DNA from: Candidatus Zambryskiibacteriota bacterium
Lineage (GTDB): Bacteria; Patescibacteriota; Minisyncoccia; Phycocordibacterales; DATDWN01
Assembly: GCA_003173855.1 (NCBI GenBank)
Contig: PPGI01000004.1
Coordinates: 176 to 64,175 of the forward strand
Direction of reading: 5' to 3'
Length of the DNA stretch: 64,000 nucleotides
How positions within the stretch are numbered: the stretch's first letter is position 1; each line of letters starts with the position of its first letter. The translations under genes were made by a program, and so were the position numbers. This document shows positions 23,346 to 46,100 of the stretch, piece after piece. Below the pieces are notes generated by a model. That model saw nothing but the letters and a program-made list of their open reading frames with translations, ran no database searches and had not been told where the DNA came from.

Positions 23346-23891
23346 ATGTCAAAATCGCAATTAAACACAGGTCGCAATTGGTACGTCATCCACACTTATG
23401 CTGGATATGAAAACGCAGTGATGCGAAATCTAAAACAGCGTATCGAGTCTCTTGGCATGGAAGACAAGATTTTTAACGTCATTGTTCCAACAGAAAAGAA
23501 AATTAAAATCAAAGGAGGAAAACGTGTAGAAGAAGAGGAAAAAATTTATCCAGGATACATTTTAGTGGATATGATTGTGACTGAAGATTCATGGTTTGTT
23601 GTCAGAAATACTCCTCGAGTGACTGGTTTTGTTGGTTCTGGAGTCTATCCTGTACCTATTGATCCAAAGGAAATCGAAGTTCTATTTAGTCGAATGAATG
23701 CCGGAGACGTTAAACATAAGATTGATTTACAGTTAAATGATGCTGTTAAAATTGTCGATGGTCCATTCAAGGATTTGGAAGGCAAAGTTAACGAAGTTGA
23801 TGAGGAGAGAGGCAAAGTTAAAGTCCTTGTCGCTATGTTCGGTAGGGAGACACCAGTCGAACTAGATTTTCTTCAAGTTAAGAAAATCTAG
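23346..23891 (+). CDS. nusG: Transcription termination/antitermination factor NusG
   Basis: NWYVIHTYAGYEN NGN domain. C-terminal KOW (KIVDGPFKDLEGKV). Confidence 0.9.
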   Translation: MSKSQLNTGRNWYVIHTYAGYENAVMRNLKQRIESLGMEDKIFNVIVPTEKKIKIKGGKRVEEEEKIYPGYILVDMIVTEDSWFVVRNTPRVTGFVGSGVYPVPIDPKEIEVLFSRMNAGDVKHKIDLQLNDAVKIVDGPFKDLEGKVNEVDEERGKVKVLVAMFGRETPVELDFLQVKKI

Positions 23892-24010
23892 TTCTAAACT
23901 TTCAAATTTGGCGAACTCCTCGCTCCCAAATTAAAAATGCTCGTCACCTTAGCATTAACTAAGGCTTCTCGCATTTTTAATTTCTCACGTCGGATTTCAT
24001 CCAAATTTGG
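23892..24010 (+). repeat. Intergenic repeat element copy E (E/F subfamily)
   Basis: TTCAAATTTGGCGAACTCCTCGCTCCC...CACCTTAGCATTAACTAAGGCTT...CGGATTTCATCCAAATTTGG. Starts 1 nt after the nusG TAG. Confidence 0.8.
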
Positions 24011-24072
24011 AAGTTTCTAATCAGTGTTTGACTTAAAAGTTTTTAGTAATAGGATGAAATTGGAGGTGGATT

Positions 24073-24546
24073 TTGGCTAAAAAGCTTTCAAATCAAGACG
24101 TAGCACTTCGCAAGGCTGTGGAAAAGCGAGAGAAGTTTCTTAAGGTAGTGATTTCGGCTGTCAAAAAGATTCTTTGTGCGCATGGATTACAGACGAAACA
24201 TGAAGTTTGTAGCTCACACACGCATGTAGTCTGGGAACTTTTTGATTTCGCCGGATTCAATTTTTATGGTGATTTCGGACAGACCATGTTTGGTGGAGAC
24301 GAAATCAAGATAACTTACAAAAAGAAGCAGGTCTTCTGTGTATACTGGCAACATGACTTAAAGGTCAAATACTTTGAAAAGAATGACTGGGACAAGCATC
24401 TTTTGAGAGCCCTTGGTCGCAAGAAACAAATCTTGGAGGCAATGAAAAGAAAGGAGAAAAGACGAAGGGAAAAAGACTCTAGACTTTTCAGGAAAGAAGT
24501 TGATCGTCAAAGGCTTGAGGCAAAGGCCAAAGAACTAGCTCTGTAA
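24073..24546 (+). CDS. Hypothetical basic protein inserted between nusG and rplK
   Basis: 157 aa, Cys/His cluster (CAHGLQTKHEVCSSHTH), Lys/Arg-rich C-terminus. GC visibly higher than the flanks. Followed by terminator 24557..24592. Confidence 0.45.
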   Translation: MAKKLSNQDVALRKAVEKREKFLKVVISAVKKILCAHGLQTKHEVCSSHTHVVWELFDFAGFNFYGDFGQTMFGGDEIKITYKKKQVFCVYWQHDLKVKYFEKNDWDKHLLRALGRKKQILEAMKRKEKRRREKDSRLFRKEVDRQRLEAKAKELAL

Positions 24547-24556
24547 GTGACATACA

Positions 24557-24592
24557 AGGATTGCGGACTTCTCGCAATCCTTTGTCTTTTAT
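24557..24592 (+). terminator. Rho-independent terminator
   Basis: AAGGATTGCG-GACTTCT-CGCAATCCTT then TGTCTTTTATTT. Confidence 0.6.
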
Positions 24593-24635
24593 TTGCAATT
24601 TGAATAATTTTATAGTAGTCTTTCAACACAAAAAC

Positions 24636-25058
24636 ATGGCAAAGAAGATAACAAAAAAGCTAAAAATGTTAATCCCTGGAGGCAAAGCCGTTCCAGGTCA
24701 GCAACTTGGTCCTACACTAGGAGGAGCCGGTATTAACATTGGTGATTTCGTAAAGCGTTTTAATGACGAGACAAAAGATCGAGTTGGAGAAATGGTGCCG
24801 ACTATTGTTGAAGTTTATGATGATCGATCTTACAAAATGACTTACAAACTTGAGCCAGTTACTCAACTTATTTTAAAAACTCTAAAAAAAGAAAAAGGTT
24901 CAGGAAAAAATACAGTTTCAAAAGTCGGAACTCTAACAAAAGATCAAGTTCGAGCTATTGCGGAAAAGAAAATGCCAGATTTGAATGCAAACGATATCGA
25001 CGCTGCGATGAAAATCGTCGCCGGTTCTGCACGAAGCATGGGGGTGGATGTGAAGTAA
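24636..25058 (+). CDS. rplK: 50S ribosomal protein L11
   Basis: MAKKITKKLKMLIPGGKAVPGQQLGPTLGGAGINIGDFVKRFN matches L11. The ORF track starts upstream at a non-ATG codon. Confidence 0.9.
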   Translation: MAKKITKKLKMLIPGGKAVPGQQLGPTLGGAGINIGDFVKRFNDETKDRVGEMVPTIVEVYDDRSYKMTYKLEPVTQLILKTLKKEKGSGKNTVSKVGTLTKDQVRAIAEKKMPDLNANDIDAAMKIVAGSARSMGVDVK

Positions 25059-25084
25059 AAAATCACGAAGGTGATTTTTTATTT
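25058..25084 (+). terminator. Terminator after rplK
   Basis: AAAAATCAC-GAAG-GTGATTTTTT. Confidence 0.55.
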
Positions 25085-25135
25085 TGACTAAATTTAAATA
25101 GGTAAGTAATATCTTCAAAAGAAGGAGATAGTTCG

Positions 25136-25696
25136 ATGAATATTGGACTGGATTTTGACGGTGTCATCGTGAATACAGACGCACTGAAGCCCGTGATTGC
25201 CGAAAAAATGTTTGGGGTAAAAATCGAACCCCAAAACTATAACAAGAAATACGTTTTTTCGAAAAACCTACTCACGCCAGAACAATATCTGGCTGTTGCA
25301 GTAGAAGTTCATACAGGCAATCATCCTTTTGAAGAAGTTCCTGGAGCTCTTGAACATATTAAGATGCTTCAGGAGTTTGGTTGCAATATCTCTGTCGTTA
25401 CGAGCCGATCGTTCAGACAAGGTAATCTAGGGATTGCTCAAAATTGGATTTGGAGTAATGGCCTCGATTTGCCAATCATCGGAATTCCATACGGTTCATC
25501 AAAGGTTGAAGCGTGTCGAGAACTCGACATGTTTATCGATGATGATCTGGACGTCGTTGTTTCTTTGATTGGGATTGTTCCCCATCCATTTCTTTTCTCG
25601 TGGCCTCATAAAGTTTGGGATAACATACCCCGAGAAATTACTCAAGTGAGATCGTGGAACGAATTCTACATGTACGTGTACACGTACAGTAAGTGA
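25136..25696 (+). CDS. HAD-superfamily nucleotidase, NT5C-like (5'(3')-deoxyribonucleotidase family), putative
   Basis: N-terminal LDFDGVIV (DxDGV HAD motif I) and later DD motif. Size and pattern resemble NT5C deoxynucleotidases. First gene of the higher-GC island. Confidence 0.5.
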   Translation: MNIGLDFDGVIVNTDALKPVIAEKMFGVKIEPQNYNKKYVFSKNLLTPEQYLAVAVEVHTGNHPFEEVPGALEHIKMLQEFGCNISVVTSRSFRQGNLGIAQNWIWSNGLDLPIIGIPYGSSKVEACRELDMFIDDDLDVVVSLIGIVPHPFLFSWPHKVWDNIPREITQVRSWNEFYMYVYTYSK

Positions 25697-25706
25697 GGGA
25701 GTTCTG

Positions 25707-26342
25707 ATGCGTATCCTTAGACACGAAATGATCAACGAAAAGGAACTTCTTAGTCGATTGAAGCAGGTGCGGCTCAAGGGCTTTGGAGAACCTCTGATAT
25801 ATGAGAGTGCAAATCTCTCAATCGTTCCTGGGGTTATGACAGGAGCTTTGTATCCTCCACAGCGGTACGTCCTCAAGGGAACGGTCGAGACCATTCTCGA
25901 AATCGCGGACGCCTTTGAAAAAAGAAGTATCGACATCTTTGCTCTTCGAGGAGCAGTCTTTTTCTGGCTAGAAGGTTCTGATCCGCTTCTCGATCCTCCG
26001 ATTCCACTTCTGCCACCAATCGTTGAAATCTCTCACGAACCGGGTAATCGTATGGTACCTCTCATAAACGATGGGATGCACAGAACTTATAGTGCACGAA
26101 AACGTGGAAGGGAAATTAACATTGTTCTGGTTGCCAATGTTCCAAGAGAGTATCCGTATTACGCCTATGCACTTAAAGACGGATGGAAAGAGGTGCAGGA
26201 AATTGAGGAACTTACGGATGGTTTCAAGAAAAAGGAGTACAGAAACCCAGACAATTACAAAGCGCTCTTTCGAAATTTCAATGCGGTGTTCCAAGGAGTC
26301 CAGGAACAACGCAAACAAACTCAGCCGGAACTTAAAGAATAA
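25707..26342 (+). CDS. Hypothetical protein with ParB/sulfiredoxin-like (DGxHR) domain
   Basis: PPIVEISHEPGNRMVPLINDGMHRTYSARKRGREINIVLVANVP resembles the ParB-like motif PIvV...Y.iiDGhHR..A....G...i.vvV. Confidence 0.35.
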   Translation: MRILRHEMINEKELLSRLKQVRLKGFGEPLIYESANLSIVPGVMTGALYPPQRYVLKGTVETILEIADAFEKRSIDIFALRGAVFFWLEGSDPLLDPPIPLLPPIVEISHEPGNRMVPLINDGMHRTYSARKRGREINIVLVANVPREYPYYAYALKDGWKEVQEIEELTDGFKKKEYRNPDNYKALFRNFNAVFQGVQEQRKQTQPELKE

Positions 26343-26417
26343 TTTCTGGCACAGCGAGGCATTCGTGCCTCGCTTTTCTTTTTTGTTAGAGTATGTAAAA
26401 GTATTGCGAGAAAGGAG

Positions 26418-27032
26418 ATGTATATGCGTCCTACATGGGATGAGTCGTTCATGCTCAAGGCAATGGTTTCTGCAATAAGAAGTTCGTGTCTCGTTAGACC
26501 CGTTGGCGCAGTTCTTGTTCGAGACAAACGAGAAGTAGCATCTGGCTACAACGGAGCTCCGCCGAATGTAGAGACTTGTCTTGAAACAAGTGTTTGTTTT
26601 TATCAGGATCTAGCCTACAAAGATAGTCTGCTAGGTCATGGTACTTACGAAGATTTGAAAGACAAGAGAAAGCAGTTTTGTGTGGCAGCTCATGCAGAAA
26701 TAAACACTTTTGCACAGTGTTCGCTACTCGGAATTTCTGCTGCAGGTTGCTCACTTTACATCACAAACTTTCCTTGTCCGGGATGTGTTCGAGATGTAAT
26801 TATCCCGAACAAGATTTCTGAGATTGTGGTCTGGAAAGATTACCTCAGGAATCCAGCAATCACTCTTGACGAGCTAACGATGAGTGAACTCTGGCTTCAG
26901 AGAGCTGGCATCAAAGTTCGGAGACTCAAGTTCTCTGAAACAAGAATCAGAGAACTCTTCGTTCAGCTTTTGATGGCTGGTGAGCGTACCGACTACAAGT
27001 TCATTCCACTCACAGAGACCGTACAGAAGTAA
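26418..27032 (+). CDS. dCMP deaminase (ComEB/cytidine-deoxycytidylate deaminase family)
   Basis: CVAAHAEINTFAQC (H-A-E zinc/catalytic motif) and NFPCPGCVRDVI (PCxxC), with close alignment to ComEB. Confidence 0.8.
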   Translation: MYMRPTWDESFMLKAMVSAIRSSCLVRPVGAVLVRDKREVASGYNGAPPNVETCLETSVCFYQDLAYKDSLLGHGTYEDLKDKRKQFCVAAHAEINTFAQCSLLGISAAGCSLYITNFPCPGCVRDVIIPNKISEIVVWKDYLRNPAITLDELTMSELWLQRAGIKVRRLKFSETRIRELFVQLLMAGERTDYKFIPLTETVQK

Positions 27033-27132
27033 TTCTGTACGGTCTTTCTTTATACTTTATTATTATTTGTAAAAGTGATATAAAAATTTAAGAATTGCAC
27101 ATTTTCTTGCGGGTAACCGCTGAAAGGACAAA

Positions 27133-28617
27133 ATGGAATTCGTTCCACTCTACTATGCCGAGCGTCTCCGGGTCGTGAATCCGACCGGAGATGTTGGAAT
27201 TGCAACACTATGGTCAAAAGTGGAGTCAGTTATCGAAGTTCTGGAAAGCTCTGGTGTGGATTTATCTCCAGAAACATCGAGAATTGTTGTAGTGGCTAAT
27301 CTGTACGGAAATGGTTTGCCACACATGCTCCGAAATCTTCTTCACAATCCACAGATTCACTACATTGTAATTTGCGGGAAAAACCTCTCTGGTTCGCGGG
27401 AGTGGCTCCTGAACTTCTTTGCGCACGGGCTTGAAGAAGTAATGTTTCTTGGAGCAAAGTCATTTCGGATCATTGGTACTGAAAGAATCATCGATGGCGA
27501 AGTCAGGCGGGAAGATTTTTCAAATCCTCCACAGATTTCTGTCTTTGGTGAAATTAGTTCCAACGAAACGAAAGTTGGTATCAAAACTTTTCTTGAAACT
27601 TTGCCTCCGAAAATTGGAGACGAAATTATAAGGATTGATCCGCCAGAAGTTCCGCAACCTGCTGTCACGCGTTTTCCATCGAATGCGTTTGGTCATCAGA
27701 TTTTGCGAGAGAGACCAACGGAAGCTTGGCGTGAGCTTATCTTCCGGCTCTATCGTTTTGGTCATCGTACCACTATTACAAAAAGTAGTGGCCCCGAGCA
27801 GCGCATCGAACTTCCAAATGTTCGTGTTGTTGTGGAAGATCCAAGTGAAGAGTCAAAAGAAATAGTTAGTTCGGCGGGGTTTAGCTTGGAAAGATTCCGT
27901 GATTATCAAAAACGGATTCTCGATCCCATAAAGCCTGCTGATCTCGATTACAGCTATGGCTCACTACTTCGTATGGGGCTCGATAAGAAGCCAATCGATT
28001 CGCTAGAAATCATTGCGGATCGAATGACTTCAAATCCTGACACACGAAGTGCCTTTGCAACTCTCTGGAATAACGCCATACACCTTCCGATGGGTCGTGA
28101 CCTTCCATGCTTCGTTACGTTTTTTTTCAGGCGATTCGAAGAAAAGCTCACGATGACTGCTACTTTCCGTGCACATAATGCGATGGATGCATGGCTCGAG
28201 AATTTTTACGGCCTTGCAGCTATTCAAAGATTTGTTACGGAAAGATCAGGTTTAGAACGTGGTCCCATAACGGTCATAAGTCATTCAATAAGCATTGACC
28301 CTAATGCTCTTTCTCGGGCCAAGAGTATTGTTGATGACAAAAAGACAGACGAGATTCTCGATAAATCAACTGGCAAATTGGGCCCTCGTTTTGATCCGAA
28401 CGGCGCCTTTACGGTGACTATCGATCGCTCGACACTTGAACTCGTTGTCGAGCATTCGTTTCAAGGCATGAAGCTTGGCGAATATCGCGGCAGGACAGTG
28501 GAGGAAATCGAACACCAACTCTCACGTGATGAGGTACTGTCCGTATTCTCACATGCACTTTACCTAGGACGAGAGCTTGCAAGAAAGGAGATGGAATTAA
28601 AAGTTCTAAAGAAATAA
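27133..28617 (+). CDS. Thymidylate synthase / dCMP-hydroxymethylase superfamily enzyme with a novel roughly 200-aa N-terminal extension
   Basis: C-terminal half aligns to ThyA: YSYGSLLR...IDSLEIIADRMTSNPDTRSAFATLWN ~ PVYGKQWR...[26 protein letters not shown]. Nucleophile Cys in PCF (ThyA PCH) at nt 28108-28110. GPITVISHSISI ~ GDFVWTGGDTHLY. Confidence 0.6.
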   Translation: MEFVPLYYAERLRVVNPTGDVGIATLWSKVESVIEVLESSGVDLSPETSRIVVVANLYGNGLPHMLRNLLHNPQIHYIVICGKNLSGSREWLLNFFAHGLEEVMFLGAKSFRIIGTERIIDGEVRREDFSNPPQISVFGEISSNETKVGIKTFLETLPPKIGDEIIRIDPPEVPQPAVTRFPSNAFGHQILRERPTEAWRELIFRLYRFGHRTTITKSSGPEQRIELPNVRVVVEDPSEESKEIVSSAGFSLERFRDYQKRILDPIKPADLDYSYGSLLRMGLDKKPIDSLEIIADRMTSNPDTRSAFATLWNNAIHLPMGRDLPCFVTFFFRRFEEKLTMTATFRAHNAMDAWLENFYGLAAIQRFVTERSGLERGPITVISHSISIDPNALSRAKSIVDDKKTDEILDKSTGKLGPRFDPNGAFTVTIDRSTLELVVEHSFQGMKLGEYRGRTVEEIEHQLSRDEVLSVFSHALYLGRELARKEMELKVLKK

Positions 28618-28620
28618 GAG

Positions 28621-28652
28621 AGCCCCGCTGCTAAGTCAGAGCGGGGCTTTTT
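28621..28652 (+). terminator. Strong GC-rich rho-independent terminator closing the island
   Basis: AGCCCCGCTG-CTAAGTCAG-AGCGGGGCT then TTTTGT. Confidence 0.7.
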
Positions 28653-28682
28653 GTAATTTGAGCTCAATGTTATCATTCCAAT

Positions 28683-29108
28683 ATGATTCTGAAGGTTAAA
28701 AAACTTCATTCAGATGCCATTTTGCCATCATATGCTCACCCAGGAGATGCCGGACTGGATATGTATTCAAATGAGACTGTGACAATTGAACCCGGGCAGG
28801 CACATAAGGTGAAAACTGGGATTGCATTCGAGATTCCAGACGGCTACGTGGGACTGATTTGGGATAAAAGTGGAGTAGCATTTAATCATAAATTAAAAAC
28901 TTTAAGCGGAGTGATAGATTCAGGATACAGAGGTGAAGCTATGCTTAGTCTCATAAATTTAAGCAATACACCTTGCACGATAGAAAAAGGTCATAAAGTC
29001 TCGCAAATGTTAATTCAAAAAGTGGAAACAGTTGAAGTGAAAGAGGTTAATGAATTATCAGAAACGAAACGTGGTGAAGGTGGTTTTGGAAGTACTGGAA
29101 GAAAATGA
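28683..29108 (+). CDS. dut: dUTP diphosphatase (dUTPase)
   Basis: AGLDM, GVIDSGYRGE, and C-terminal RGEGGFGSTG motifs. Confidence 0.85.
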   Translation: MILKVKKLHSDAILPSYAHPGDAGLDMYSNETVTIEPGQAHKVKTGIAFEIPDGYVGLIWDKSGVAFNHKLKTLSGVIDSGYRGEAMLSLINLSNTPCTIEKGHKVSQMLIQKVETVEVKEVNELSETKRGEGGFGSTGRK

Positions 29109-30727
29109 TGAGAGAAAAATTAGAAAATTTAATAAATACTGCGTTAAAAGAACTCAAATTAAATGAGTTTGTAAATACTCAGTTTGGAAAAATTTATAGT
29201 ATTGATTATCCAAAAAGAATGGATTTCGGGGATTATAGTACAAATGTTGGAATAATTATTGGAGGGTCGGGTCACCCAGAGGATATTTTGAAATGGCTTG
29301 ATGAGCATAAACCAGAAGAAGTTGAAAAAATTGAAACAAAAGCTGGTTTTATTAATTTTTTTCTTAGTCCAAATTATTTTGAAAATGTGTTAAAGAATTT
29401 AGAAATTCCAAAAAATTCTGACGAGAATTTATTTATTGAACACACTCAACCCAATCCATTTAAAGCTTTTCATATCGGTCATTTGATGAACAATGCAATA
29501 GGTGAATCAATTGCTCGAATCACAAAATCTCTTGGTGCTGAAGTTCAAACGGCAACTTATCATGGTGACAAAGGTTTGCATGTTGCTAAAGCTGTATGGG
29601 CAATAAAAAAAGGAAAGAATTTAAATGAAGCATATGCATTTGGAAACAAAGCATATGAAGAGGATCAAATTGCAAAAGAAGAAATAATTGAAATAAATAA
29701 AAAAATTTACGACGAAAGTGATCCGGAAATAAATCAAATTTATGAGGATGGAAGAAAAGAGTCACTCGAGCATTTTGAATCAATATACAAAATGCTTGGC
29801 AGCGAATTTGATTTCCATTTCTTTGAAAGTGAGACAGGAGAAGTTGGTAAAGAACTAGTCGAAGAAAATTTAGGTAAGGTTTTTGAAAAAAGTGAAGGAG
29901 CTGTAGTTTTTAAGGGAGAAAACTTTGAGCCTAAAACTCATACACGTGTTTTTCTAAACTCTGATGGACTTCCGACATATGAAGCTAAAGAACTTGGAAT
30001 TGCCAAACTAAAAAGTGATTTTTTTGATTTCGACAAGTCTATAACAATTACTGCAAACGAACAGGATTCATTTTTCAAAGTCGTTGAAGTAGTTATTGGT
30101 GAAGTAATGCCAGAACTCAAAGGCAAAATTATGCATCTATCTCATGGGCTTTTGAAATTACCAACTGGAAAAATGTCATCAAGAACCGGATCGATAATCT
30201 CTGTGGAGTCTTTAATTGATCAAGTTAAAGAAAAGGTAAAAGCTAAAATTGATGATGATAAAATCTCTGAGATTATTGCCCTAGGAGCAATTAAGTATTC
30301 GATTTTAAGACAAGGTATCGGTAAGGATATTATTTTTGATTTTGATAAATCGATTTCATTTGAAGGTGATTCTGGCCCATATTTACAATATTCAACAGTT
30401 CGAGCAAGATCGCTTTTAAAAAAGGCAGAAGGTGTTATTAAATTATCAAATAAACTTCCAGAAAGCTGGCAAACGACAAATTTGGAAAGAATGCTTGAGA
30501 GATTTCCATCAATCGTAGCTCGAGCAGGTTCAGAATTTGCTCCTCATTATGTTGCAACATATTTAATTCAGTTAGCATCCGAATTTAACCATTTCTACAA
30601 TGAACACAAAATAATTGATGAAAAAGATCCTAAATCTCCTTATCGTTTAACTTTGGTTAAAGCATTTTCTGAAGTGATGGAAATGGGACTTGATTTACTT
30701 GCTATAAAAATACCAGACAGAATGTAA
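29105..30727 (+). CDS. argS: Arginyl-tRNA synthetase
   Basis: HIGH motif (FHIGHLMNN), DALR anticodon-binding domain, and the characteristic C-terminal ...DRM. Confidence 0.8.
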   Translation: MMREKLENLINTALKELKLNEFVNTQFGKIYSIDYPKRMDFGDYSTNVGIIIGGSGHPEDILKWLDEHKPEEVEKIETKAGFINFFLSPNYFENVLKNLEIPKNSDENLFIEHTQPNPFKAFHIGHLMNNAIGESIARITKSLGAEVQTATYHGDKGLHVAKAVWAIKKGKNLNEAYAFGNKAYEEDQIAKEEIIEINKKIYDESDPEINQIYEDGRKESLEHFESIYKMLGSEFDFHFFESETGEVGKELVEENLGKVFEKSEGAVVFKGENFEPKTHTRVFLNSDGLPTYEAKELGIAKLKSDFFDFDKSITITANEQDSFFKVVEVVIGEVMPELKGKIMHLSHGLLKLPTGKMSSRTGSIISVESLIDQVKEKVKAKIDDDKISEIIALGAIKYSILRQGIGKDIIFDFDKSISFEGDSGPYLQYSTVRARSLLKKAEGVIKLSNKLPESWQTTNLERMLERFPSIVARAGSEFAPHYVATYLIQLASEFNHFYNEHKIIDEKDPKSPYRLTLVKAFSEVMEMGLDLLAIKIPDRM

Positions 30728-30751: not shown

Positions 30752-33700
30752 ATGGAAAAAGGAGAAGATAAATCCTTAAAAAGTCCAATTGCTATAAAGG
30801 AGGAAGAAATACTAGCTTTCTGGAAAGAAAACAAAATTTTTGAGAAGTCGTTAGAGAAAAAATCGCCAAAAGGTGAGTTTGTATTTTACGATGGTCCAGC
30901 AACTGCAAATACAAAACCAGTTTTTCATACAATGGAACCTTTTGCTTTCAAGGATTTGATTCCACGCTACAGAACAATGCGAGGTTATCACGTTCGTAGA
31001 AAGGGTGGGTGGGACACTCATGGTTTGCCAGTTGAATTGCAGATTGAGAAAAAACTTGGATTTAAATCAAAAAAAGATATTGAAAATTTTGGTATCGCCG
31101 AATTTAACAGACTCTGTAAAGAAAGTGTCTGGGAATTTATCGGATTGTGGAAAGATTTCACTTCGAGAATGGCTTACTGGGCTGATCAAGACAATGCTTA
31201 CGTCACTTACGATAACGCATACATCGAATCTGTATGGAATGTAATTAAATATGTTAATGACAGAAATTTACTCTACAAGGATTACAAAGTTCTACCTTGG
31301 TGTCCAAGATGTGGAACCGCTCTTTCTTCTCATGAGCTTGCTCAAGGATATCAAGATGACAAAGATCTTTCAGTAACTGCAAAATTTAAAGTTGTTGGGG
31401 AAGAAAATACGTATTTACTTGCTTGGACAACGACTCCTTGGACTTTGCCTGGAAATGTTGCTCTAGCTGTAGGGGCCGATATTGATTACGTAAAAATAAA
31501 AAAAGGAGAGGAATTTTTAATTCTGGCTAAAGAAAGATTATCAATTGTTGAAGACGAATATAAGATAGTTGAAGAATTCAAAGGTGTGAAATTAGTCGGT
31601 TTAAAATACGAGCCACTTTACCACTATCTTGCAAATAAATTTGATAAAAAAGATCCGATTGCTTTCGAAAAATCTTATCAAATCTACGCTGCGCCTTTTG
31701 TAAACACTGAAGATGGAACAGGAATTGTTCATACGGCTGTAATGTATGGCCAGGATGATTTTGTCCTAGGGACATCTGTCGGTTTGCCGAAGCATCATTT
31801 GGTAAAAGATGATGGGCATTTTGGAGATGATATGGATTTTCTCTCAGGCAGGTTTGTTAAAGACGAAGAGGTGGCAGTAGATATTGTTAAAGATTTGGCC
31901 AAGAGAGGATTATTGTTTGATAAAAAATATTATACTCACTCGTACCCTCATTGTTGGAGATGCAAAACTCCGCTTATTTATTATGCGCGAGATTCTTGGT
32001 ACATCTCGATGTCAAAATTGCGTTCAGAACTTGTTCGTGAAAACGAAGAAATTCATTGGGAACCAGAACATATTAAAGAAGGCCGATTTGGTGAGTGGCT
32101 TCGTGAGATAAAGGATTGGGCGCTTTCTCGAGAGAGATATTGGGGAACACCTCTGCCTGTTTGGTTTGATGATGAAGGAAATTTTACAGTTCTGGGTTCA
32201 ATTGAAGATTTAAAAAAACACATAAAAACTTCGGGGAATAAATATTTTTTGATGCGACATGGTTGGGCACTTTGTAATGAAAAAAATGTAGAAAGTTTAA
32301 ATCCAGGAGAAGAAAATGATTCAATAACCGAAAAGGGAATTGCTGAAGCAAAAAAATCATTAGGAAAATTAAAAAATATAGATTTAATTGTTACATCCAA
32401 TTTTCGACGAGCAAAACAGACTGCAGAACTTGCTGCAGAATATTTTGGAATTCCAAAAAATGAAATTATCGTTGATGAGGGTTTGTGTGAAGATGAGGGC
32501 ACAATGGAGCATTTTGCTGGAGTTCGAAAAAGAATGGTTGAAGCTATGTCAGATCTAGAGAAAAAAAATTTAAATAAAAATATTCTAGTTATTTCTCATC
32601 AGTACCCGCTTAGAGTTTTGATTTCATCACATGAAGCATTTAACGAAAGAGAAGAAAAAGAAAAATTTGAAGTTACTCCATTTGATACCGGAGAAATTAG
32701 AGAAATTAATTTCTTGCCATTACCTCGAAATTCCAATTCCGAAGTAGATTTACACCGACCATACATCGATGAAGTCGAGTTAGTAGATAAAAATGGAAAG
32801 AAATTACAGCGTGTAAAAGAGGTGATGGATGTTTGGTTTGATTCAGGTTGTATGCCATTTGCCCAAGATCATTATCCGTGGAATAGAGATATACTTTATC
32901 CTGCAGATTTTATTTCGGAGGCTATCGATCAGACGCGAGGCTGGTTTTATACGTTGCATGCAATTGGAGTGTTAATGGAAAAAGGCAGAGCGTTTAAAAA
33001 TGTAATTTGTCTCGGACATATTCTTGATAAAGAGGGCAAAAAAATGTCGAAATCTGTCGGCAATGTTGTTGATCCTTGGACAGTTATAGATAAATTTGGT
33101 GTCGATGCATTGCGTCTCTGGATGTATTCAGTAAATTCTCCGGGAGATTCAAAAAACTTTGATGAGAAAAGTGTGGATGAATTAATAAAAAAAGTCTTCA
33201 ATCCATTAAACAATATCGTAGCATTTTACGAATTATATAAAGACGAGAACACAAAAACGACTAACAAAAGCAAAAATGTTTTAGATAAGTGGATACTATC
33301 GAGGTTCGCACAGTTAATTAAAAGTGGGACAGAAAACATGGATAATTTCAAAGTTTTTGAATCAGCACGCCCGATAAGAGATTTTGTAAATGATTTTTCA
33401 ACTTGGTATGTCAGACGATCACGAGATAGGTTTAAGTCTGATAATGTTGACGAAAAGAACGAAGCTCTTGGAACAACTTTGTTTGTACTAATGGAATTGG
33501 CAAAATACATGGCACCGTTCACACCATTTTTTGCTGAAGAAATTTATCAAAAACTTAAGACTTCAAATGATCCAGAAAGTGTTCATTTAGAGAATTGGCC
33601 AGAAGCACCAAAGTTAGACAATGGTTTGCTCGATCAAATGGAAAAAGCTAGAGTTGTTGTATCTCGAGCACTGGAACTTAGACAAAAAGCAGGTCACAAA

Positions 33701-34075
33701 ATTCGTCAGCCATTGCAAAGTCTTTCTATTCCAGAAAAATTTGATAGAGAAATGCTAGAAATTATTGCTGACGAAGTGAATGTAAAAGTAGTAAAAATTT
33801 CTGGGAATGAAGTTGTTCTTGATACGAATCTCACAGAAGAACTTAAAACCGAAGGAATAATGAGAGATGTTATTCGTTTTATTCAAGATTCAAGGAAAAC
33901 AAAAGGATTGCTCGCTACAAAAGTTGTCTCGGCAACGATTTTCCTCCCGAATTCGATAGCAGAAGTTGTATCTACATATAAAAGCGAAATTATAAAAATT
34001 ACTAATCTTTCTGAACTTCAAGTGGTAATAGATAAAAAAGAAGGTGAAGAATTGAATGTTGATTTTGTGTCATAA
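30752..34075 (+). CDS. ileS: Isoleucyl-tRNA synthetase (type 2) with an inserted histidine-phosphatase-like domain and a degenerate HIGH motif
   Basis: WDTHGLPVE, WCPRCGTALSSHE, WALSRERYWGTPLP, DLHRPYID, KMSKSVGN all IleRS-like. About 155-aa insert with RHG...TSNFRRAKQTA...VISHQ between WGTPLP and DLHRPYID. Confidence 0.8.
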   Translation: MEKGEDKSLKSPIAIKEEEILAFWKENKIFEKSLEKKSPKGEFVFYDGPATANTKPVFHTMEPFAFKDLIPRYRTMRGYHVRRKGGWDTHGLPVELQIEKKLGFKSKKDIENFGIAEFNRLCKESVWEFIGLWKDFTSRMAYWADQDNAYVTYDNAYIESVWNVIKYVNDRNLLYKDYKVLPWCPRCGTALSSHELAQGYQDDKDLSVTAKFKVVGEENTYLLAWTTTPWTLPGNVALAVGADIDYVKIKKGEEFLILAKERLSIVEDEYKIVEEFKGVKLVGLKYEPLYHYLANKFDKKDPIAFEKSYQIYAAPFVNTEDGTGIVHTAVMYGQDDFVLGTSVGLPKHHLVKDDGHFGDDMDFLSGRFVKDEEVAVDIVKDLAKRGLLFDKKYYTHSYPHCWRCKTPLIYYARDSWYISMSKLRSELVRENEEIHWEPEHIKEGRFGEWLREIKDWALSRERYWGTPLPVWFDDEGNFTVLGSIEDLKKHIKTSGNKYFLMRHGWALCNEKNVESLNPGEENDSITEKGIAEAKKSLGKLKNIDLIVTSNFRRAKQTAELAAEYFGIPKNEIIVDEGLCEDEGTMEHFAGVRKRMVEAMSDLEKKNLNKNILVISHQYPLRVLISSHEAFNEREEKEKFEVTPFDTGEIREINFLPLPRNSNSEVDLHRPYIDEVELVDKNGKKLQRVKEVMDVWFDSGCMPFAQDHYPWNRDILYPADFISEAIDQTRGWFYTLHAIGVLMEKGRAFKNVICLGHILDKEGKKMSKSVGNVVDPWTVIDKFGVDALRLWMYSVNSPGDSKNFDEKSVDELIKKVFNPLNNIVAFYELYKDENTKTTNKSKNVLDKWILSRFAQLIKSGTENMDNFKVFESARPIRDFVNDFSTWYVRRSRDRFKSDNVDEKNEALGTTLFVLMELAKYMAPFTPFFAEEIYQKLKTSNDPESVHLENWPEAPKLDNGLLDQMEKARVVVSRALELRQKAGHKIRQPLQSLSIPEKFDREMLEIIADEVNVKVVKISGNEVVLDTNLTEELKTEGIMRDVIRFIQDSRKTKGLLATKVVSATIFLPNSIAEVVSTYKSEIIKITNLSELQVVIDKKEGEELNVDFVS

Positions 34076-42712: not shown

Positions 42713-43129
42713 ATTAGACTTACTTATCCACATTTCATACATTACAATTTTTTCTAAAAAAGACTGATTTTGTTAGAAATGATCAGGATTGATCAAACAC
42801 TTTTTAAGTCAAATTTTGAATTTTAGCCATCATAAGGGTTTTGTATTTCTATACTAGAAACCTATATAAACCTTTATAAACATTCATAAAAAAAGCAGGT
42901 TTTATTAACCTTTAGTTCAATTATAATTTGGCTTGATCTTTCTCGGATATTAATTTAATTTTCTAAAAATTTTTTAAAAATTAGCATTTCTTAGAAATTT
43001 CAAATTTTAATAAAATCAACGAAATTGGAAAAATCATTTTCTAAGGCCAAAACCTCGTTTTATGGCTAATAATAAGTGATAAAATATTATTATTGCTACG
43101 CTCGCTTTGTAGCAAAGTACCTTATTCTG

Positions 43130-46100
43130 ATGAAACTCAGGAAGTATAAATCTTTGAAAGGAAGGTATGCTTTGTGCCTAATTACATTTTTTTTGGGGTC
43201 TTTTTTGCTCTCTCCAAGTAGTGTCTTCGCTGCCCCAATGATTTCTAGCGAATTCAAAGAGGGTCTTTATAATAAAGGTTTTATTGATTTGCGAGAAATA
43301 AATAAAGTCATAAATCAATTATCAAGCAAAATAAATTATAATTTAACATTTTCAAGTTCTTTCCCAACAAGCACAAATTTTTCAAATGTAGAATCAGCAA
43401 ATATAAATATTTCAGATTTTTTTTCTTCTGCAATTTCTGAGGCAAAATATTTAACAGATGGCCAGGTTGCATTAATCAAAAATTATTTGGATTCAGTAGC
43501 CGGCGGTCTGCAATATGTTTCTAGTTCATTTAAAATTGCATACCAACGATCAAACAATCGAAGATCAACTGCCAGTGCTTTAAATTCTGGTAAGTTTAGA
43601 AATCGAGCGGCGGTTCAAAAAACGACTACAAAAGTTGCAGTTGTTAAAAACGAAAATCAATCACCTCCTGCAAAAAATGTTGCTGCGATTTCTTTCCCAC
43701 AAGTAATTAAAAAAATTCTAAATCCTTCTCGAGTGTCAGTGCCAAGTGCAACTGAACAAATTTTAGCATCTGCAAACTTTGTTACAAAAGTTGATTTAGA
43801 ATCTAGTTTGCAAAAAATCTATAATGAAATTTTACAGAAATTTTCAAACACAGGATCAGTGAGCTCCACAGATCTGGCAGCAATTTACAGACAAATTGCT
43901 CTTAGTCAAAAAATTGATAATTTATCAAATGTTGTTATAACAAATCCAACTATTTCTGGTGGAACAATTACTAACGTCACCAATCTGACAGTTGCAGCAA
44001 CTGGTTCAACAACAATTACAAACCTGGTAGTTACAAATACTTCAACATCAACATTTGCAGGTGGAATAGCGATAACAGGTGGATGTCTTTCTGTAAACGG
44101 CACATGTATTAGTTCTGGCTCTGGTTCCGGAACCCCTGGAGGATCAGATGGGTATGTTCAATTTAACAGTGGAGGATCATCTTTTGGAGGCTCGTCAAAT
44201 TTTGTTTGGGATAATACAAATATTAGGCTTGGAATAGGCACATCATCCCCATATTCAACTCTCTCTGTCGCAGGTCAGATAGTAGGAGCATATTTTACAG
44301 CAACTACAACAACTGCAAGCACATTTCCTTATGCATCGACTACCGGTGTCTCTATTACCGGGGGATTAACCCTTCCAACAACTTTTAATGGCCCTCTTCA
44401 GGCGAATGCTGGAATAGTTTCTGCAACAACATCAATTGGAATTCTTTATGGAGGTACCGGAGCTACAACTTTCGGAGCCAACTCGATTATTACTTCAAAC
44501 TCAGCTGGTACAGCATTGATTGCAACGACTTCAAACAACTTTACTATCGGATCTCTCATTGCCACGAGTTCAACTCTGAACAATATTTTTCTTAACAATT
44601 GGAATGGTTTTGGAACAAGTACGCCAAAATGGTTAGCACAATTTTCATCTTCAACTGCACCTCAGCTGGCTTTATCTGATGCAGGAAGTAACATCTGGAC
44701 ATTCAGAGTGGATTCAGGTTCACTTACAATTGGAACATCTTCACCAACTACATTTGCTACCAGCACTACACCTCAAATTTCTATTGCCAATACTGGATTT
44801 GGTACAACGACACTTCGTGGACTAAATATTAATGCTCAAGCTACGAGCACTTCTAACGTTGGTGAAAATATCTCAACTGGTTGTTTTGCTATGTCTGGAA
44901 CTTGTATGGGCATCTTCCCATTCACGACAAATGCTGGATACAACTCAACATCTACAATACTTGGACTTAACGGACTATTCTCAACTGCCTCATCAACATT
45001 CAGTTCATCACTTTATTTATCAAGTCTCACTCAAGGATTTAGCTACCTGGGATCTAATGGATTAATACAAACTATTGCAACAAGTACTCTAGCAAATTAC
45101 ATCCTTCCATTTACCTCATACGGAGCTTCAACCTCAACAATACTTGGATTTACAAATGGTCTGTTTTCTACAGCATCATCAACATTCTCATCTAACCTAT
45201 ATCTCTCGAACCTCACTCAAGGATTTAGCTATCTAGGTTCAAATGGACTATTTCAAACAATCTCAACATCAACATTAGCCAACTACATCCTTCCATTCAC
45301 TTCCTACGGAGCATCAACTTCAACAGTTCTAGGTCTAACAGGAGGTTACTTCTCAACAGGATCATCAACGCAGAGTGGAAACTTCTTCCTTCCAGCACTA
45401 ACTCAAGGTTTCACCTACACTGGTTCAAACGGATTGGTTTCTATAGTTTCGACTTCAACTCTAACCAACTTCATTTTGACTTTCAAATCATACGGAGTCT
45501 CGACCTCATCCGTTACCGGCTTTTTGGGCGGTTTCTTCTCAACTGCCTCCTCAACACAATCTTCTAACTTTTATCTTCCAGCTCTAACACAAGGTTTCCT
45601 TTACAACGGATCAAGTGGTCTAACACAAACTATTGCTTCTTCTTCTGTAAACCTATCTTGGTTTAATAACGATGCGGCATTTGCCAATAACCCATTTACT
45701 GCAATATCATCACAAGCAGGATATTCCGCTACTACATCTTCATTGGTTATTGGAACAACTACGGCTCCAGTAAACATTGCTTCTGTTACAATCGCGTCAT
45801 CAACCGCCTCTCAACTTGCACTTAGTGGTGGAGCAGGTCAATCAATATGGACATTTAGAAATGCTGGAAGTAACTTCTACCTAGCAACTACTACAACTGC
45901 CGGCACAGCAACCACATCAACAAACGCTATGACAATATTGGGAAGCAGCGGTTTTGTTGGCTTTGGAACAACAACTCCAACTCTTGGCCCTCTGACAATG
46001 AACTCTGGAGCGTATGTAACAACTGGAGGTGTTTGGACGAATGCTTCAGATCGAAATTTGAAAGAGAATTTTCTTGAAGTAAATATTGAAGAAATACTTA

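What the first reader, a model, noticed from the sequence alone, without database searches (positions are those of the whole stretch)
27133..28617. Thymidylate-synthase-fold enzyme with a novel N-terminal domain and altered active-site neighbourhood
Residues from about 200 to 460 align to ThyA across its hallmark blocks. The dUMP-phosphate region [13 protein letters not shown] becomes NPDTRSAFATLWN here, with a single Arg instead of two. The nucleophile block PCH becomes PCF. The C-terminal GDTHLY becomes ISHSIS. Residues 1-200 (MEFVPLYYAERLRVVNPTGDVGIATLW...ANLYGNGLPHMLRNLL...) match nothing I recognise. The divergence at the pyrimidine- and phosphate-contacting positions suggests a substrate other than dUMP, for example a hydroxymethylase or a different pyrimidine nucleotide, rather than housekeeping ThyA.
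Basis: partly seen in the sequence, partly recalled or inferred. Interest (0 to 1): 0.65.

Follow-up and report, generated by a model that had tools for sequence, protein, structure and literature searches.

The report
Three-domain thymidylate synthase, remodelled active site
This gene most likely encodes the thymidylate synthase of a tiny (Patescibacteria-type) bacterium, built as an archaeal-type core flanked by a cobalamin-protein-like domain lacking its cobalt ligand and a small domain found on pterin-linked enzymes, in an unstudied subfamily whose cofactor- and sugar-contacting residues have been rewired.

Summary
The protein has three domains, not two.

- **Residues 1-172** are a true homologue of the corrinoid protein MtrA. 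The cobalt-ligating His84 and its partner Glu54 are deleted.
- **Residues about 188-405** are a methanogen-type thymidylate synthase (TS) core. The catalytic Cys, Tyr94, Arg126, Arg166 and the uracil-specifying Asn177 equivalents are all kept.

This architecture defines a large family that databases label "thymidylate synthase" or "DUF4346 protein". My literature searches found no paper on it, and no close relative has a solved structure.

The family has two branches. The DPANN-archaea/Kerfeldbacteria branch has a canonical TS site and sits in dTTP operons. The window's bacterial branch carries frozen, paired substitutions at the Arg127, Asp169, His207 and Tyr209 equivalents. It is linked to a ParB/sulfiredoxin-fold protein and a HAD phosphatase.

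In the window and four related CPR genomes the gene lies between a dCMP deaminase and a dUTPase (dUTPase detected in two of the four loci), so the substrate is almost certainly dUMP. The one-carbon carrier and the role of the extra domains remain open.

Verdict: a new variant of a known kind, of moderate interest.

The parts
27133..28617 (+). Whole ORF, 494 aa: MtrA-like domain + TS core + DUF4346 domain (subfamily B of the three-domain family)
27133..27648 (+). Residues 1-172: MtrA-fold (Rossmann-type) domain. The MtrA Glu54-Asn55 and His84-Ile85 pairs are deleted. The Gly57 and Asn64 equivalents (G61, N68) are kept, and W27 is invariant.
   Evidence: Profile hits to 5LAA/8Q3V/5L8X at E 1e-12 to 1e-9. 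Column counts show His84 absent in 169/169. MtrA residue roles are from PMC4915002.
27694..28347 (+). Residues 188-405: thymidylate-synthase-fold core of the methanogen type
   Evidence: TIGR03283 4.7e-26, below cutoff; PF00303 25.6 bits against GA 24.3. hhalign to E. coli ThyA, probability 97.8%. Foldseek. PDB profile search.
28108..28110 (+). Codon of Cys326, the predicted catalytic nucleophile (P-C-F; E. coli Cys146 equivalent)
   Evidence: invariant in 73/73 and 169/169 sequences
28393..28617 (+). Residues 421-494: PterinBD-DUF4346 domain (three strands and two helices in the model), with invariant Asp421 and His474
   Evidence: PF14251 2.3e-14. Hits to the C-terminal parts of NF002128 and TIGR00284. 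Conservation. No solved homologue by sequence.
25707..26342 (+). Linked gene: ParB-CE (PF24392) protein with a ParB/sulfiredoxin fold and a DGxHR motif; a putative NTP-dependent enzyme
   Evidence: Pfam 1e-31. Adjacent to the TS in about 35 of 56 genome loci, all in subfamily B. Model pLDDT 91; Foldseek hits to Atu1540, sulfiredoxin, serine kinases SerK/SbnI and ParB.
25136..25696 (+). Linked gene: HAD phosphatase with weak resemblance to NT5C 5'-deoxynucleotidases
   Evidence: A different HAD occupies the same place in Bryobacterales, and one is fused to the TS in P0151.
26418..27032 (+). dCMP deaminase (ComEB-like), supplies dUMP
   Evidence: PF00383 1.5e-16; TIGR02571 9e-23; conserved neighbour in CPR loci
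28683..29108 (+). dUTPase, supplies dUMP
   Evidence: TIGR00576 152.8 bits against cutoff 102.55

Best explanation
The gene encodes the cell's thymidylate synthase, in a three-domain form.

The central TS-fold core does the chemistry. Cys326 adds to C6 of dUMP. The resulting C5 enolate takes a one-carbon unit. Tyr275 helps remove the C5 proton. dUMP comes from the neighbouring dCMP deaminase and dUTPase.

The two flanking domains are a permanent accessory pair. One is MtrA-like and the other is DUF4346. This pair is also found in other enzymes linked to pterin or tetrahydromethanopterin (H4MPT). I infer that they bind or position the one-carbon carrier, a pterin-type cofactor, for a minimal archaeal-type core.

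The MtrA-like domain cannot bind cobalamin the way MtrA does, because the cobalt ligand is deleted.

The window's branch (subfamily B) is a derived form. The contacts to the second phosphate-binding Arg, the pterin-binding Asp and the 3'-OH pair have been relocated rather than lost. This branch works together with a ParB/Srx-fold NTP-binding protein and a HAD phosphatase. These two most simply form a pyrimidine nucleoside/nucleotide kinase-phosphatase pair around the dUMP/dTMP pool.

Shown: the domain identities, residue conservation, gene linkage and the split into two subfamilies. Inferred: the substrate, the product, the cofactor role of the flanking domains and the roles of the partner genes.
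For: - TS fold and catalytic residues.
- Cys326, Tyr275, Arg346 and Asn357 are invariant or nearly so down to 25% identity.
- The sister subfamily D has a fully canonical site: RR, S, N-D, N, S-x-S-A-H-I-Y in 109-117 of 117 sequences. It scores 163-168 bits on the methanogen TS model, against a cutoff of 174.55.
- Subfamily D context: in Kerfeldbacteria the order is dCMP deaminase, P-loop kinase, TS, dTMP kinase, dUTPase. In a DPANN archaeon the TS sits next to a dCMP deaminase and a DCD/dUTPase.
- The window and CPR loci L013, L018, L019 and L022 share the order NusG-L11-[HAD, ParB-CE, dCMP deaminase, TS]-(dUTPase)-ArgRS. HAD was not detected in L018, the deaminase comes first in L019, and dUTPase was detected only in L013 and L022.
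- The subfamily B substitutions are paired: Q224R with R306H/K, N348H with D349N, H387S with Y389D. They are frozen across 52 sequences, which indicates a working, remodelled site.
- N-domain homology to MtrA and loss of His84/Glu54: read against PMC4915002.
- DUF4346 also matches the C-termini of an MtrA variant (NF002128) and a dihydropteroate-synthase-like family (TIGR00284).
- The ParB-CE fold resembles sulfiredoxin, SerK, SbnI and ParB. A HAD is fused to the TS in P0151.
Against: - No enzyme of this family has been assayed, and my searches found no paper on it.
- From my own knowledge of L. casei D221 mutagenesis, the Asp169 equivalent is needed for folate-dependent dTMP formation in canonical TS. 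It is Asn in all 52 subfamily B sequences. A plain methylene-tetrahydrofolate mechanism may therefore not hold.
- Pterin binding by DUF4346 rests only on the Pfam name and on domain co-occurrence.
- I could not test whether genomes with this gene lack thyA, thyX or folA.
- The domain arrangement in the model is uncertain (pTM 0.52).
- The kinase/phosphatase roles of the partners are inferred from fold class and weak family hits, all below cutoffs.
Confidence: 0.6

Rival explanations
1. Subfamily B is not an ordinary methylene-folate TS. With the ParB/Srx-fold NTP-dependent protein and the HAD phosphatase it forms a different route to dTMP. One version makes 5-hydroxymethyl-dUMP, which is then phospho-activated and reduced. 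Another uses a phospho-activated or non-folate C1 donor. Either would avoid oxidising a tetrahydropterin and so avoid the need for dihydrofolate reductase.
For: - Asp169 is replaced by Asn in 52/52 sequences, and the 3'-OH pair is changed.
- ParB-CE is linked only to this subfamily. The genes overlap in L001, which suggests translational coupling.
- Two non-orthologous HADs were recruited independently, and one is fused to the TS.
- The nearest solved folds of ParB-CE include ATP-using sulfiredoxin and the small-molecule kinases SerK and SbnI.
- The family is concentrated in CPR bacteria and DPANN archaea, groups I recall as generally lacking folate biosynthesis.
- TS-fold enzymes with a non-folate cofactor now exist in the PDB (9iqu and 9iqc, flavin-dependent).
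Against: - No reductase or other C1 enzyme is conserved in the neighbourhood.
- About 20 subfamily B loci lack an adjacent ParB-CE.
- Subfamily D makes do with the same flanking domains and a canonical site.
- The partner roles are equally well explained as a nucleotidase/kinase pair.
- The chemistry proposed here is speculation.
Confidence: 0.22
2. The protein is a corrinoid-dependent thymidylate synthase. The MtrA-like domain holds a corrinoid, His-off or ligated by His474 of DUF4346. Methyl-Co(III) then methylates the Cys-activated C5 of dUMP directly, as SAM-dependent C5 methyltransferases do.
For: - The N-domain is a true MtrA homologue.
- The tail-pocket residues Gly57 and Asn64 are kept as G61 and N68.
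- DUF4346 has an invariant Asp/His pair.
- DUF4346 co-occurs with MtrA and with pterin-binding TIM-barrel-like proteins.
Against: - His84-Ile85 are deleted in 169/169 sequences. Glu54-Asn55 are deleted in subfamily B and replaced in subfamily D. The conserved meander motif GAIPFxEN is not kept. PMC4915002 says the corrin ring is anchored mainly through His84.
- No methyl-pterin:corrinoid methyltransferase or reductive activator is conserved nearby.
- Subfamily D keeps the full folate-type TS site, including the Asp169 and Tyr209 equivalents.
Confidence: 0.05
3. The enzyme acts on a different pyrimidine: a hydroxymethylase or other modifying enzyme acting on dCMP, CMP or UMP, for a modified DNA base or a secondary metabolite.
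For: - The phosphate and 3'-OH contacts are altered.
- Foldseek also returns the CMP hydroxymethylase MilA and a phage dCMP hydroxylase among its top hits.
Against: - The Asn177 equivalent is kept in 72/73 sequences; from my own knowledge, cytosine-specific enzymes have Asp here.
- The neighbouring genes supply dUMP.
- No phage or viral-contig relatives of this architecture or of ParB-CE were found.
- The gene sits in a housekeeping slot between ribosomal-protein and tRNA-synthetase genes in five CPR genomes.
- No glycosylase, DNA-modification or biosynthetic genes are nearby.
Confidence: 0.06

Closest known systems
Methanogen-type thymidylate synthase (NCBIfam TIGR03283; the M. jannaschii MJ0757 / M. 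thermautotrophicus type)
   Same: It has the same minimal TS core of about 200 residues. The window protein matches 185 of 201 profile positions (E 4.7e-26). Sister-branch members score 163-168 bits. The catalytic Cys, Tyr, Arg and Asn are shared.
   Different: The score of 91.6 is far below the cutoff of 174.55. As I recall, the archaeal enzymes are stand-alone. Here the core sits between an MtrA-like domain and a DUF4346 domain. In the window's branch the Arg127, Asp169, His207 and Tyr209 equivalents are replaced.
Canonical ThyA (E. coli, L. casei, human; PF00303)
   Same: Same fold (Foldseek). Shared elements are the P-C nucleophile, Tyr94, Arg126', Trp133, Arg166, Asn177 and the dimer-type Arg motif.
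   Different: Only residues 264-417 align by profile. PCH is PCF. RR is RS (RH or RK in relatives). RSxD is RAHN. GDTHLY is SHSISID. Two extra domains are present, and the folate-clamping C-terminal tail is absent.
MtrA, the corrinoid subunit of methyl-H4MPT:coenzyme M methyltransferase (PF04208; PDB 5LAA, 5L8X, 8Q3V)
   Same: The N-terminal 172 residues are homologous over nearly the whole soluble domain (E 1e-12 to 1e-9). The Gly57 and Asn64 equivalents of the nucleotide-tail pocket are kept.
   Different: The cobalt ligand His84 and its H-bond partner Glu54 fall in two exact two-residue deletions. The GAIPFxEN meander is not conserved. There is no membrane anchor. The Pfam score of 12.8 is below the GA of 25.
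Bifunctional DHFR-TS of protozoa
   Same: It is also a TS fused to an N-terminal nucleotide-binding-fold domain on one chain of about 500 residues. These enzymes are the top full-length Foldseek hits.
   Different: The resemblance outside the TS core is only in size (rmsd 18-23 Å). The N-domain here is MtrA-like, not DHFR, and nothing shows that it is a reductase.
ParB/sulfiredoxin-fold small-molecule enzymes (sulfiredoxin, serine kinases SerK and SbnI), compared with the partner gene
   Same: The partner protein shares the core fold and a DGxHR-type motif.
   Different: Only about 110 residues superpose (TM 0.25-0.33). There is no sequence-level relative in the PDB. The substrate is unknown.

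Membership tests
Thymidylate synthase superfamily (PF00303 / ThyA fold) | TS alpha/beta fold | tested here: met
   AlphaFold model pLDDT 83.8. Foldseek E 1e-12 to 1e-13 against many TS chains, aligned over about 230 columns at 2.4-4 Å.
Thymidylate synthase superfamily (PF00303 / ThyA fold) | Pfam gathering score | tested here: met
   25.6 bits against 24.3, only just met.
Thymidylate synthase superfamily (PF00303 / ThyA fold) | Catalytic Cys in a Pro-Cys motif, plus the Tyr94, Arg166 and Arg126' equivalents | tested here: met
   C326, Y275, R346 and R305; invariant or at least 94% conserved in 73 diverse members.
Thymidylate synthase superfamily (PF00303 / ThyA fold) | Asn at the uracil-specificity position (E. 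coli Asn177) | tested here: met
   N357; Asn in 72/73.
Thymidylate synthase superfamily (PF00303 / ThyA fold) | Canonical cofactor and sugar contacts (Arg127', Ser167, Asp169, His207, Tyr209) | tested here: not met
   S306, A347, N349, S387 and D389. The changes at 306, 349, 387 and 389 are shared by all 52 subfamily B sequences; position 347 is Ser/Thr in most relatives. The canonical residues are present in 109-117 of 117 subfamily D sequences.
Thymidylate synthase superfamily (PF00303 / ThyA fold) | dUMP to dTMP activity with methylene-tetrahydrofolate | not testable with these tools
Only gene context supports dUMP as substrate.
Methanogen-type TS (TIGR03283, equivalog) | Score at or above the curated cutoff of 174.55 | tested here: not met
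   91.6 bits for the window protein and 111-113 for other subfamily B members. Subfamily D members reach 163-168.
MtrA (PF04208 / TIGR01111) | Homology of the soluble Rossmann-type domain | tested here: met
   Profile of 29 N-domains against PDB: 5LAA 1e-12, 8Q3V 1.7e-10, 5L8X 1e-9. The single-sequence Pfam hit is only E 0.093.
MtrA (PF04208 / TIGR01111) | Cobalt-ligating His84 and its partner Glu54 (PMC4915002) | tested here: not met
   His84-Ile85 are a gap in 169/169 sequences. Glu54-Asn55 are a gap in 52/52 subfamily B sequences and Lys/Arg in subfamily D.
MtrA (PF04208 / TIGR01111) | Corrinoid binding | not testable with these tools
   Needs reconstitution and spectroscopy.
PterinBD-DUF4346 (PF14251) | Pfam gathering score | tested here: met
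   54.3 bits against 29.6, residues 421-490.
PterinBD-DUF4346 (PF14251) | Pterin binding, as the name implies | not testable with these tools
   Only co-occurrence with the MtrA variant NF002128 and the DHPS-like family TIGR00284. No solved homologue and no paper.
Unnamed three-domain family MtrA-like / TS / DUF4346 | The same three domains in the same order over the full length | tested here: met
   714 and 957 word-index hits. 146 clusters at 50% identity with E<1e-30, most listed members full-length down to about 26% identity. Precomputed Pfam gives PF04208+PF00303+PF14251 in the sister branch.
dCMP/CMP hydroxymethylases (T4 gp42, MilA) | Asp at the Asn177 position (cytosine specificity; own knowledge) | tested here: not met
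   Asn357.

The most novel reading that the evidence does not exclude
The bacterial branch of this family, together with its ParB/sulfiredoxin-fold partner and a HAD phosphatase, is a previously unknown way of making thymidylate. It would not follow the classical methylene-tetrahydrofolate to dihydrofolate cycle. It could use a different one-carbon carrier or reductant held by the MtrA-like and DUF4346 domains, possibly with an NTP-dependent activation step. That would explain how folate-poor, ultra-small CPR bacteria, and by extension DPANN archaea, obtain dTMP.
Probability: 0.2. Interest if true: 0.85.

Novelty: new variant of a known kind. Interest (0 to 1): 0.55.

Why it matters
Thymidylate synthesis is essential, and only two enzyme solutions are textbook knowledge: ThyA and ThyX. 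The cofactor of archaeal-type ThyA has never been settled. PMC9012536 and PMC9931769 both say its biochemistry is barely studied.

This window shows that a third, fixed architecture is the form found widely in DPANN archaea and many CPR bacteria. One branch has rewired exactly the residues that, in classical TS, hold the folate and the sugar. That same branch acquired two dedicated partner proteins.

Expressing one gene, or the three-gene cassette, in a thyA-deficient E. coli would directly test which one-carbon carrier these organisms use. It would also test whether dihydrofolate reductase is needed.

If it turns out to be a plain TS, the result still corrects the annotation of the MtrA-like and DUF4346 domains. 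It would also give PF24392 its first functional context.

Tried and rejected
- **Literature:** searches for DUF4346, PterinBD, PF14251, PF24392, TIGR03283, "MtrA" with thymidylate synthase, "MtrA-like", and ParB with TS and pterin found nothing on this family.
- **C-terminal domain:** a profile search of PDB sequences gave only noise.
- **ParB-CE:** a profile search of PDB sequences gave nothing.
- **Defence systems:** PADLOC gave no hit for the TS, ParB-CE or HAD. Only the deaminase resembles a dCTP-deaminase defence model.
- **Phages and viral contigs:** there were only weak hits to ordinary phage td genes, none to ParB-CE, and none in IMG/VR. I therefore dropped the idea of a phage-type hypermodification system.
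- **Canonical genes in the window:** I scanned 35 window ORFs against Pfam and found no thyA, thyX, folA or tmk. The window is only 64 kb, so this says nothing about the genome.
- **Pseudoenzyme reading:** rejected, because the catalytic residues are invariant and the substituted positions are themselves frozen.
- **Other neighbours:** genes near the TS in Thermodesulfobacteriota (arginase-family, alpha/beta hydrolase, M23-like, an unknown 239-aa protein) look like lineage-specific synteny.
Full report
**1. What is in the sequence**

The ORF at 27133-28617 (+) is real, starts with ATG and encodes 494 residues. Its N-terminus lines up with those of 42 full-length homologues, so the start is correct.

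- NPDTRSAFATLWN at residues 301-313
- PCF at 325-327
- ISHSIS at 382-387

A profile-profile alignment of 73 diverse family members against E. coli ThyA has 97.8% probability.

| E. coli ThyA | Window protein | Status |
|---|---|---|
| Tyr94 | Y275 | kept |
| Arg126 | R305 | kept |
| Arg127 | S306 | changed |
| Trp133 | W312 | kept |
| Cys146 | C326 | kept |
| His147 | F327 | changed |
| Arg166 | R346 | kept |
| Ser167 | A347 | changed |
| Asp169 | N349 | changed |
| Asn177 | N357 | kept |
| His207 | S387 | changed |
| Tyr209 | D389 | changed |

An AlphaFold model built on 43 sequences has mean pLDDT 83.8. Its central part matches thymidylate synthases and other TS-fold enzymes in the PDB at E about 1e-12. 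A profile search of PDB sequences also ranks canonical TS first.

**2. Three domains, not two**

Pfam and NCBIfam show three parts.
- **A weak MtrA signal at residues 60-117.**
- **A TS core.** It is best matched by the methanogen-type model TIGR03283 (E 4.7e-26, 91.6 bits, well below the 174.55 cutoff). It only just passes PF00303 (25.6 against 24.3 bits).
- **A clear PF14251 "PterinBD-DUF4346" domain at residues 421-490** (E 2e-14).

The model has low-confidence linkers at 176-186 and 409-423. The TS core is therefore about 188-405, not 200-460.

**3. The N-terminal domain is an MtrA homologue without the cobalt ligand**

A profile of 29 N-terminal domains hits the crystal structures of MtrA at E 1e-12 to 1e-9 over almost the whole soluble domain. 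MtrA is the corrinoid subunit of the methanogen methyltransferase.

The structural paper on MtrA (PMC4915002) makes three points:
- The corrin ring is anchored mainly by His84.
- His84 is held by Glu54, and Asn55 contacts a propionamide.
- The nucleotide tail sits in a pocket that includes Gly57 and Asn64.

In this family His84-Ile85 fall in an exact two-residue gap in 169 of 169 sequences. Glu54-Asn55 are a second two-residue gap in the window's branch, and Lys/Arg plus Asp/Glu in the other branch. Gly57 and Asn64 are kept as G61 and N68.

The domain is therefore MtrA-derived but cannot bind cobalamin in the MtrA manner.

**4. The family**

The architecture is common.
- There are 714 word-index hits, and the top 120 are all about 500 aa at 58-70% identity.
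- There are 146 clusters at 50% identity with E<1e-30. Most listed members are full-length, down to about 26% identity.
- Sources name them "thymidylate synthase", "DUF4346 domain-containing protein" or "hypothetical protein".
- No dedicated NCBIfam model exists. No close relative has a solved structure.
- Eight literature searches found no paper on the family (one search retrieved only the MtrA structural paper).

In species-representative genomes the window's relatives occur in several groups, all as MAGs:
- Bryobacterales/Terriglobia
- Patescibacteria
- Thiotrichales (Thiomargarita, Parabeggiatoa)
- Thermodesulfobacteriota
- one Chloroflexia genome

A search started from a 26%-identical member recovers a second branch. 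It occurs in DPANN archaea (Aenigmatarchaeota, Woesearchaeota, Pacearchaeota, Nanobdellota), CPR Kerfeldbacteria and KSB1.

**5. Two subfamilies with different active sites**

I aligned 52 bacterial locus sequences and 117 sequences of the second branch.

| Position (window numbering) | Subfamily D | Subfamily B (window) |
|---|---|---|
| 224 | Gln | Arg/Lys |
| 306 (Arg127) | Arg, 109/117 | His/Lys/Ser |
| 347 (Ser167) | Ser, 117/117 | Ser/Thr; Ala in the window |
| 348 | Asn | His |
| 349 (Asp169) | Asp, 116/117 | Asn, 52/52 |
| 357 (Asn177) | Asn | Asn |
| 387 (His207) | His, 117/117 | Ser/Gly |
| 389 (Tyr209) | Tyr, 117/117 | Asp/Ser/Asn |

Subfamily D has a textbook TS site. Its cores score 163-168 bits on the methanogen TS model.

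The subfamily B changes look like relocations. An Arg is lost at 306 and gained at 224. A His is lost at 387 and gained at 348. An Asp is lost at 349 and gained at 389.

These changes are then frozen across 40-70% identity. That indicates a remodelled but working site, not decay.

**6. Genomic context**

In the window the gene order is as follows:

NusG, a 157-aa ORF, L11, HAD phosphatase (weakly NT5C-like), ParB-CE protein (PF24392), dCMP deaminase, this gene, dUTPase, ArgRS, IleRS

The same slot holds the cassette in four other CPR genomes:
- HAD was not detected in L018.
- The deaminase comes first in L019.
- dUTPase was detected only in L013 and L022.

Subfamily D context:
- In a Kerfeldbacteria genome a subfamily D gene occupies the equivalent place. 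The order is NusG, L11, L1, dCMP deaminase, P-loop kinase, TS, dTMP kinase, dUTPase. The dTMP kinase scores 178.6 against a TIGR00041 cutoff of 83.25.
- In a DPANN archaeon the neighbours are a dCMP deaminase and a DCD/dUTPase.

This context, together with the conserved Asn357, makes dUMP the substrate and thymidylate synthesis the role.

The four-gene cassette at 25136-28617 has GC 0.42-0.45, against 0.37 for the window and 0.32 for ArgRS. Its proteins are about 60% identical to Bryobacterales ones. Lateral acquisition is therefore likely.

**7. The partner genes**

ParB-CE is found next to the TS in about 35 of 56 genome loci, all of them subfamily B.
- It is as conserved as the TS itself, 57-67% identity.
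- In Terriglobia the order is TS, HAD, ParB-CE, with overlapping stop and start codons.
- Its model (pLDDT 91) has a ParB/sulfiredoxin fold. The nearest solved structures are Atu1540, ATP-bound sulfiredoxin, the serine kinases SerK and SbnI, and CTP-binding ParB.
- It carries an invariant N-D-G-x-H-R motif.
- All homologues are annotated as hypothetical.

HAD phosphatases accompany the TS in 21 further loci, and one is fused to a TS (P0151). The CPR HAD and the Bryobacterales HAD are not detectably related to each other. The Bryobacterales one shows weak, sub-cutoff resemblance to YjjG-type pyrimidine nucleotidases.

The simplest reading is a kinase/phosphatase pair acting on the dUMP/dTMP or nucleoside pool. 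In the window's cassette ParB-CE and HAD sit where the Kerfeldbacteria operon has P-loop kinases. This reading is an inference.

**8. Mechanism**

*Shown:*
- a TS-fold core with all residues needed for Cys-dependent activation of a uracil nucleotide
- two accessory domains fixed throughout the family
- loss of the MtrA cobalt ligand
- the split into two subfamilies
- linkage to dUMP-supplying genes and, in subfamily B, to ParB-CE and HAD

*Inferred:*
- Cys326 attacks C6 of dUMP, and C5 accepts a one-carbon unit.
- The MtrA-like and DUF4346 pair holds the carrier. The same pair occurs together without a TS in the archaeal NF002128 proteins. DUF4346 also ends the dihydropteroate-synthase-like TIGR00284 proteins.

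From my own knowledge, the Asp169 equivalent is required for folate-dependent dTMP formation in canonical TS. Subfamily B may therefore bind its carrier differently or use another one. This is the main open point and the basis of the "novel case".

**9. Rivals**

- **A non-classical route involving ParB-CE and HAD (0.22)** is not excluded.
- **A corrinoid-dependent direct methyl transfer (0.05)** is made unlikely by the deleted His84/Glu54 and by the canonical folate-type site of subfamily D.
Asn357 is conserved. The neighbouring genes supply dUMP. The gene sits in a housekeeping slot. No phage or viral relatives were found.
- **A pseudoenzyme** is excluded by the conservation pattern.

**10. 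Verdict**

The gene belongs to an unstudied three-domain family that databases label thymidylate synthase. The window copy belongs to its derived bacterial branch. It is a new variant of a known kind.

Interest is moderate (0.55). The basic identity is already in database annotations. The architecture, the ligand-less MtrA domain, the rewired site and the ParB/Srx partner are undescribed. A simple complementation experiment could test which one-carbon carrier these organisms use for dTMP.

Noticed in passing
window 30752-34075 (+): The isoleucyl-tRNA synthetase (1107 aa) carries a histidine-phosphatase domain inserted inside the synthetase (PF00300 His_Phos_1, residues 499-586, E 1.4e-16; an RHG motif is visible).
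   Followed up: no
window 27014-27047 and 26353-26374 (+): A 15-bp-stem hairpin followed by a T-rich run overlaps the stop codon of the dCMP deaminase, just upstream of the TS gene. A 9-bp GC-rich hairpin with a T-run follows ParB-CE. The region has 10 terminator-like sites against 3.5 expected. The cassette may be split into separate transcripts or attenuated.
   Followed up: no
window 25136-28617: The four genes HAD, ParB-CE, dCMP deaminase and TS have GC 0.42-0.45, against 0.37 for the window and 0.32-0.35 for the flanking tRNA-synthetase genes. The encoded TS and ParB-CE are about 60% identical to Bryobacterales proteins, which suggests lateral transfer of the cassette.
   Followed up: partly
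window 23346-30727; loci L013, L018, L019, L022, L060: The cassette sits in a conserved slot, NusG-L11-[cassette]-(dUTPase)-ArgRS-IleRS, in five CPR genomes. In Kerfeldbacteria the equivalent slot holds the canonical-site TS with a P-loop kinase and dTMP kinase instead of HAD and ParB-CE. This looks like in-place replacement of one TS module by another. The ribosomal protein L1 gene, which follows L11 in Kerfeldbacteria, is not next to L11 in the window.
   Followed up: partly
P0126, P0127 (786-797 aa; the P0126 cluster includes an Abditibacteriota protein), P0151 (758 aa): Longer relatives exist. P0126 and P0127 have two DUF4346 domains, and P0126 also has two TS-like stretches. P0151 has a C-terminal HAD phosphatase fused to the three-domain TS.
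   Followed up: partly
window 43076-46819 (+): A 1247-aa protein carries a Peptidase_S74 (endosialidase chaperone) domain. It lies in the only stretch of the window with a strongly negative GC skew (-0.19) and raised GC (0.41).
   Followed up: no
loci L034-L047, L053-L057 (Thermodesulfobacteriota): In this group the TS is usually followed by other genes instead of ParB-CE. They are an M23-like protein, an unknown 239-aa protein with no Pfam hit, an alpha/beta hydrolase (PF20408) and an arginase-family enzyme. Several of these genomes have the TS gene split or frameshifted in the assembly (L053, L055, L056, L057).
   Followed up: partly
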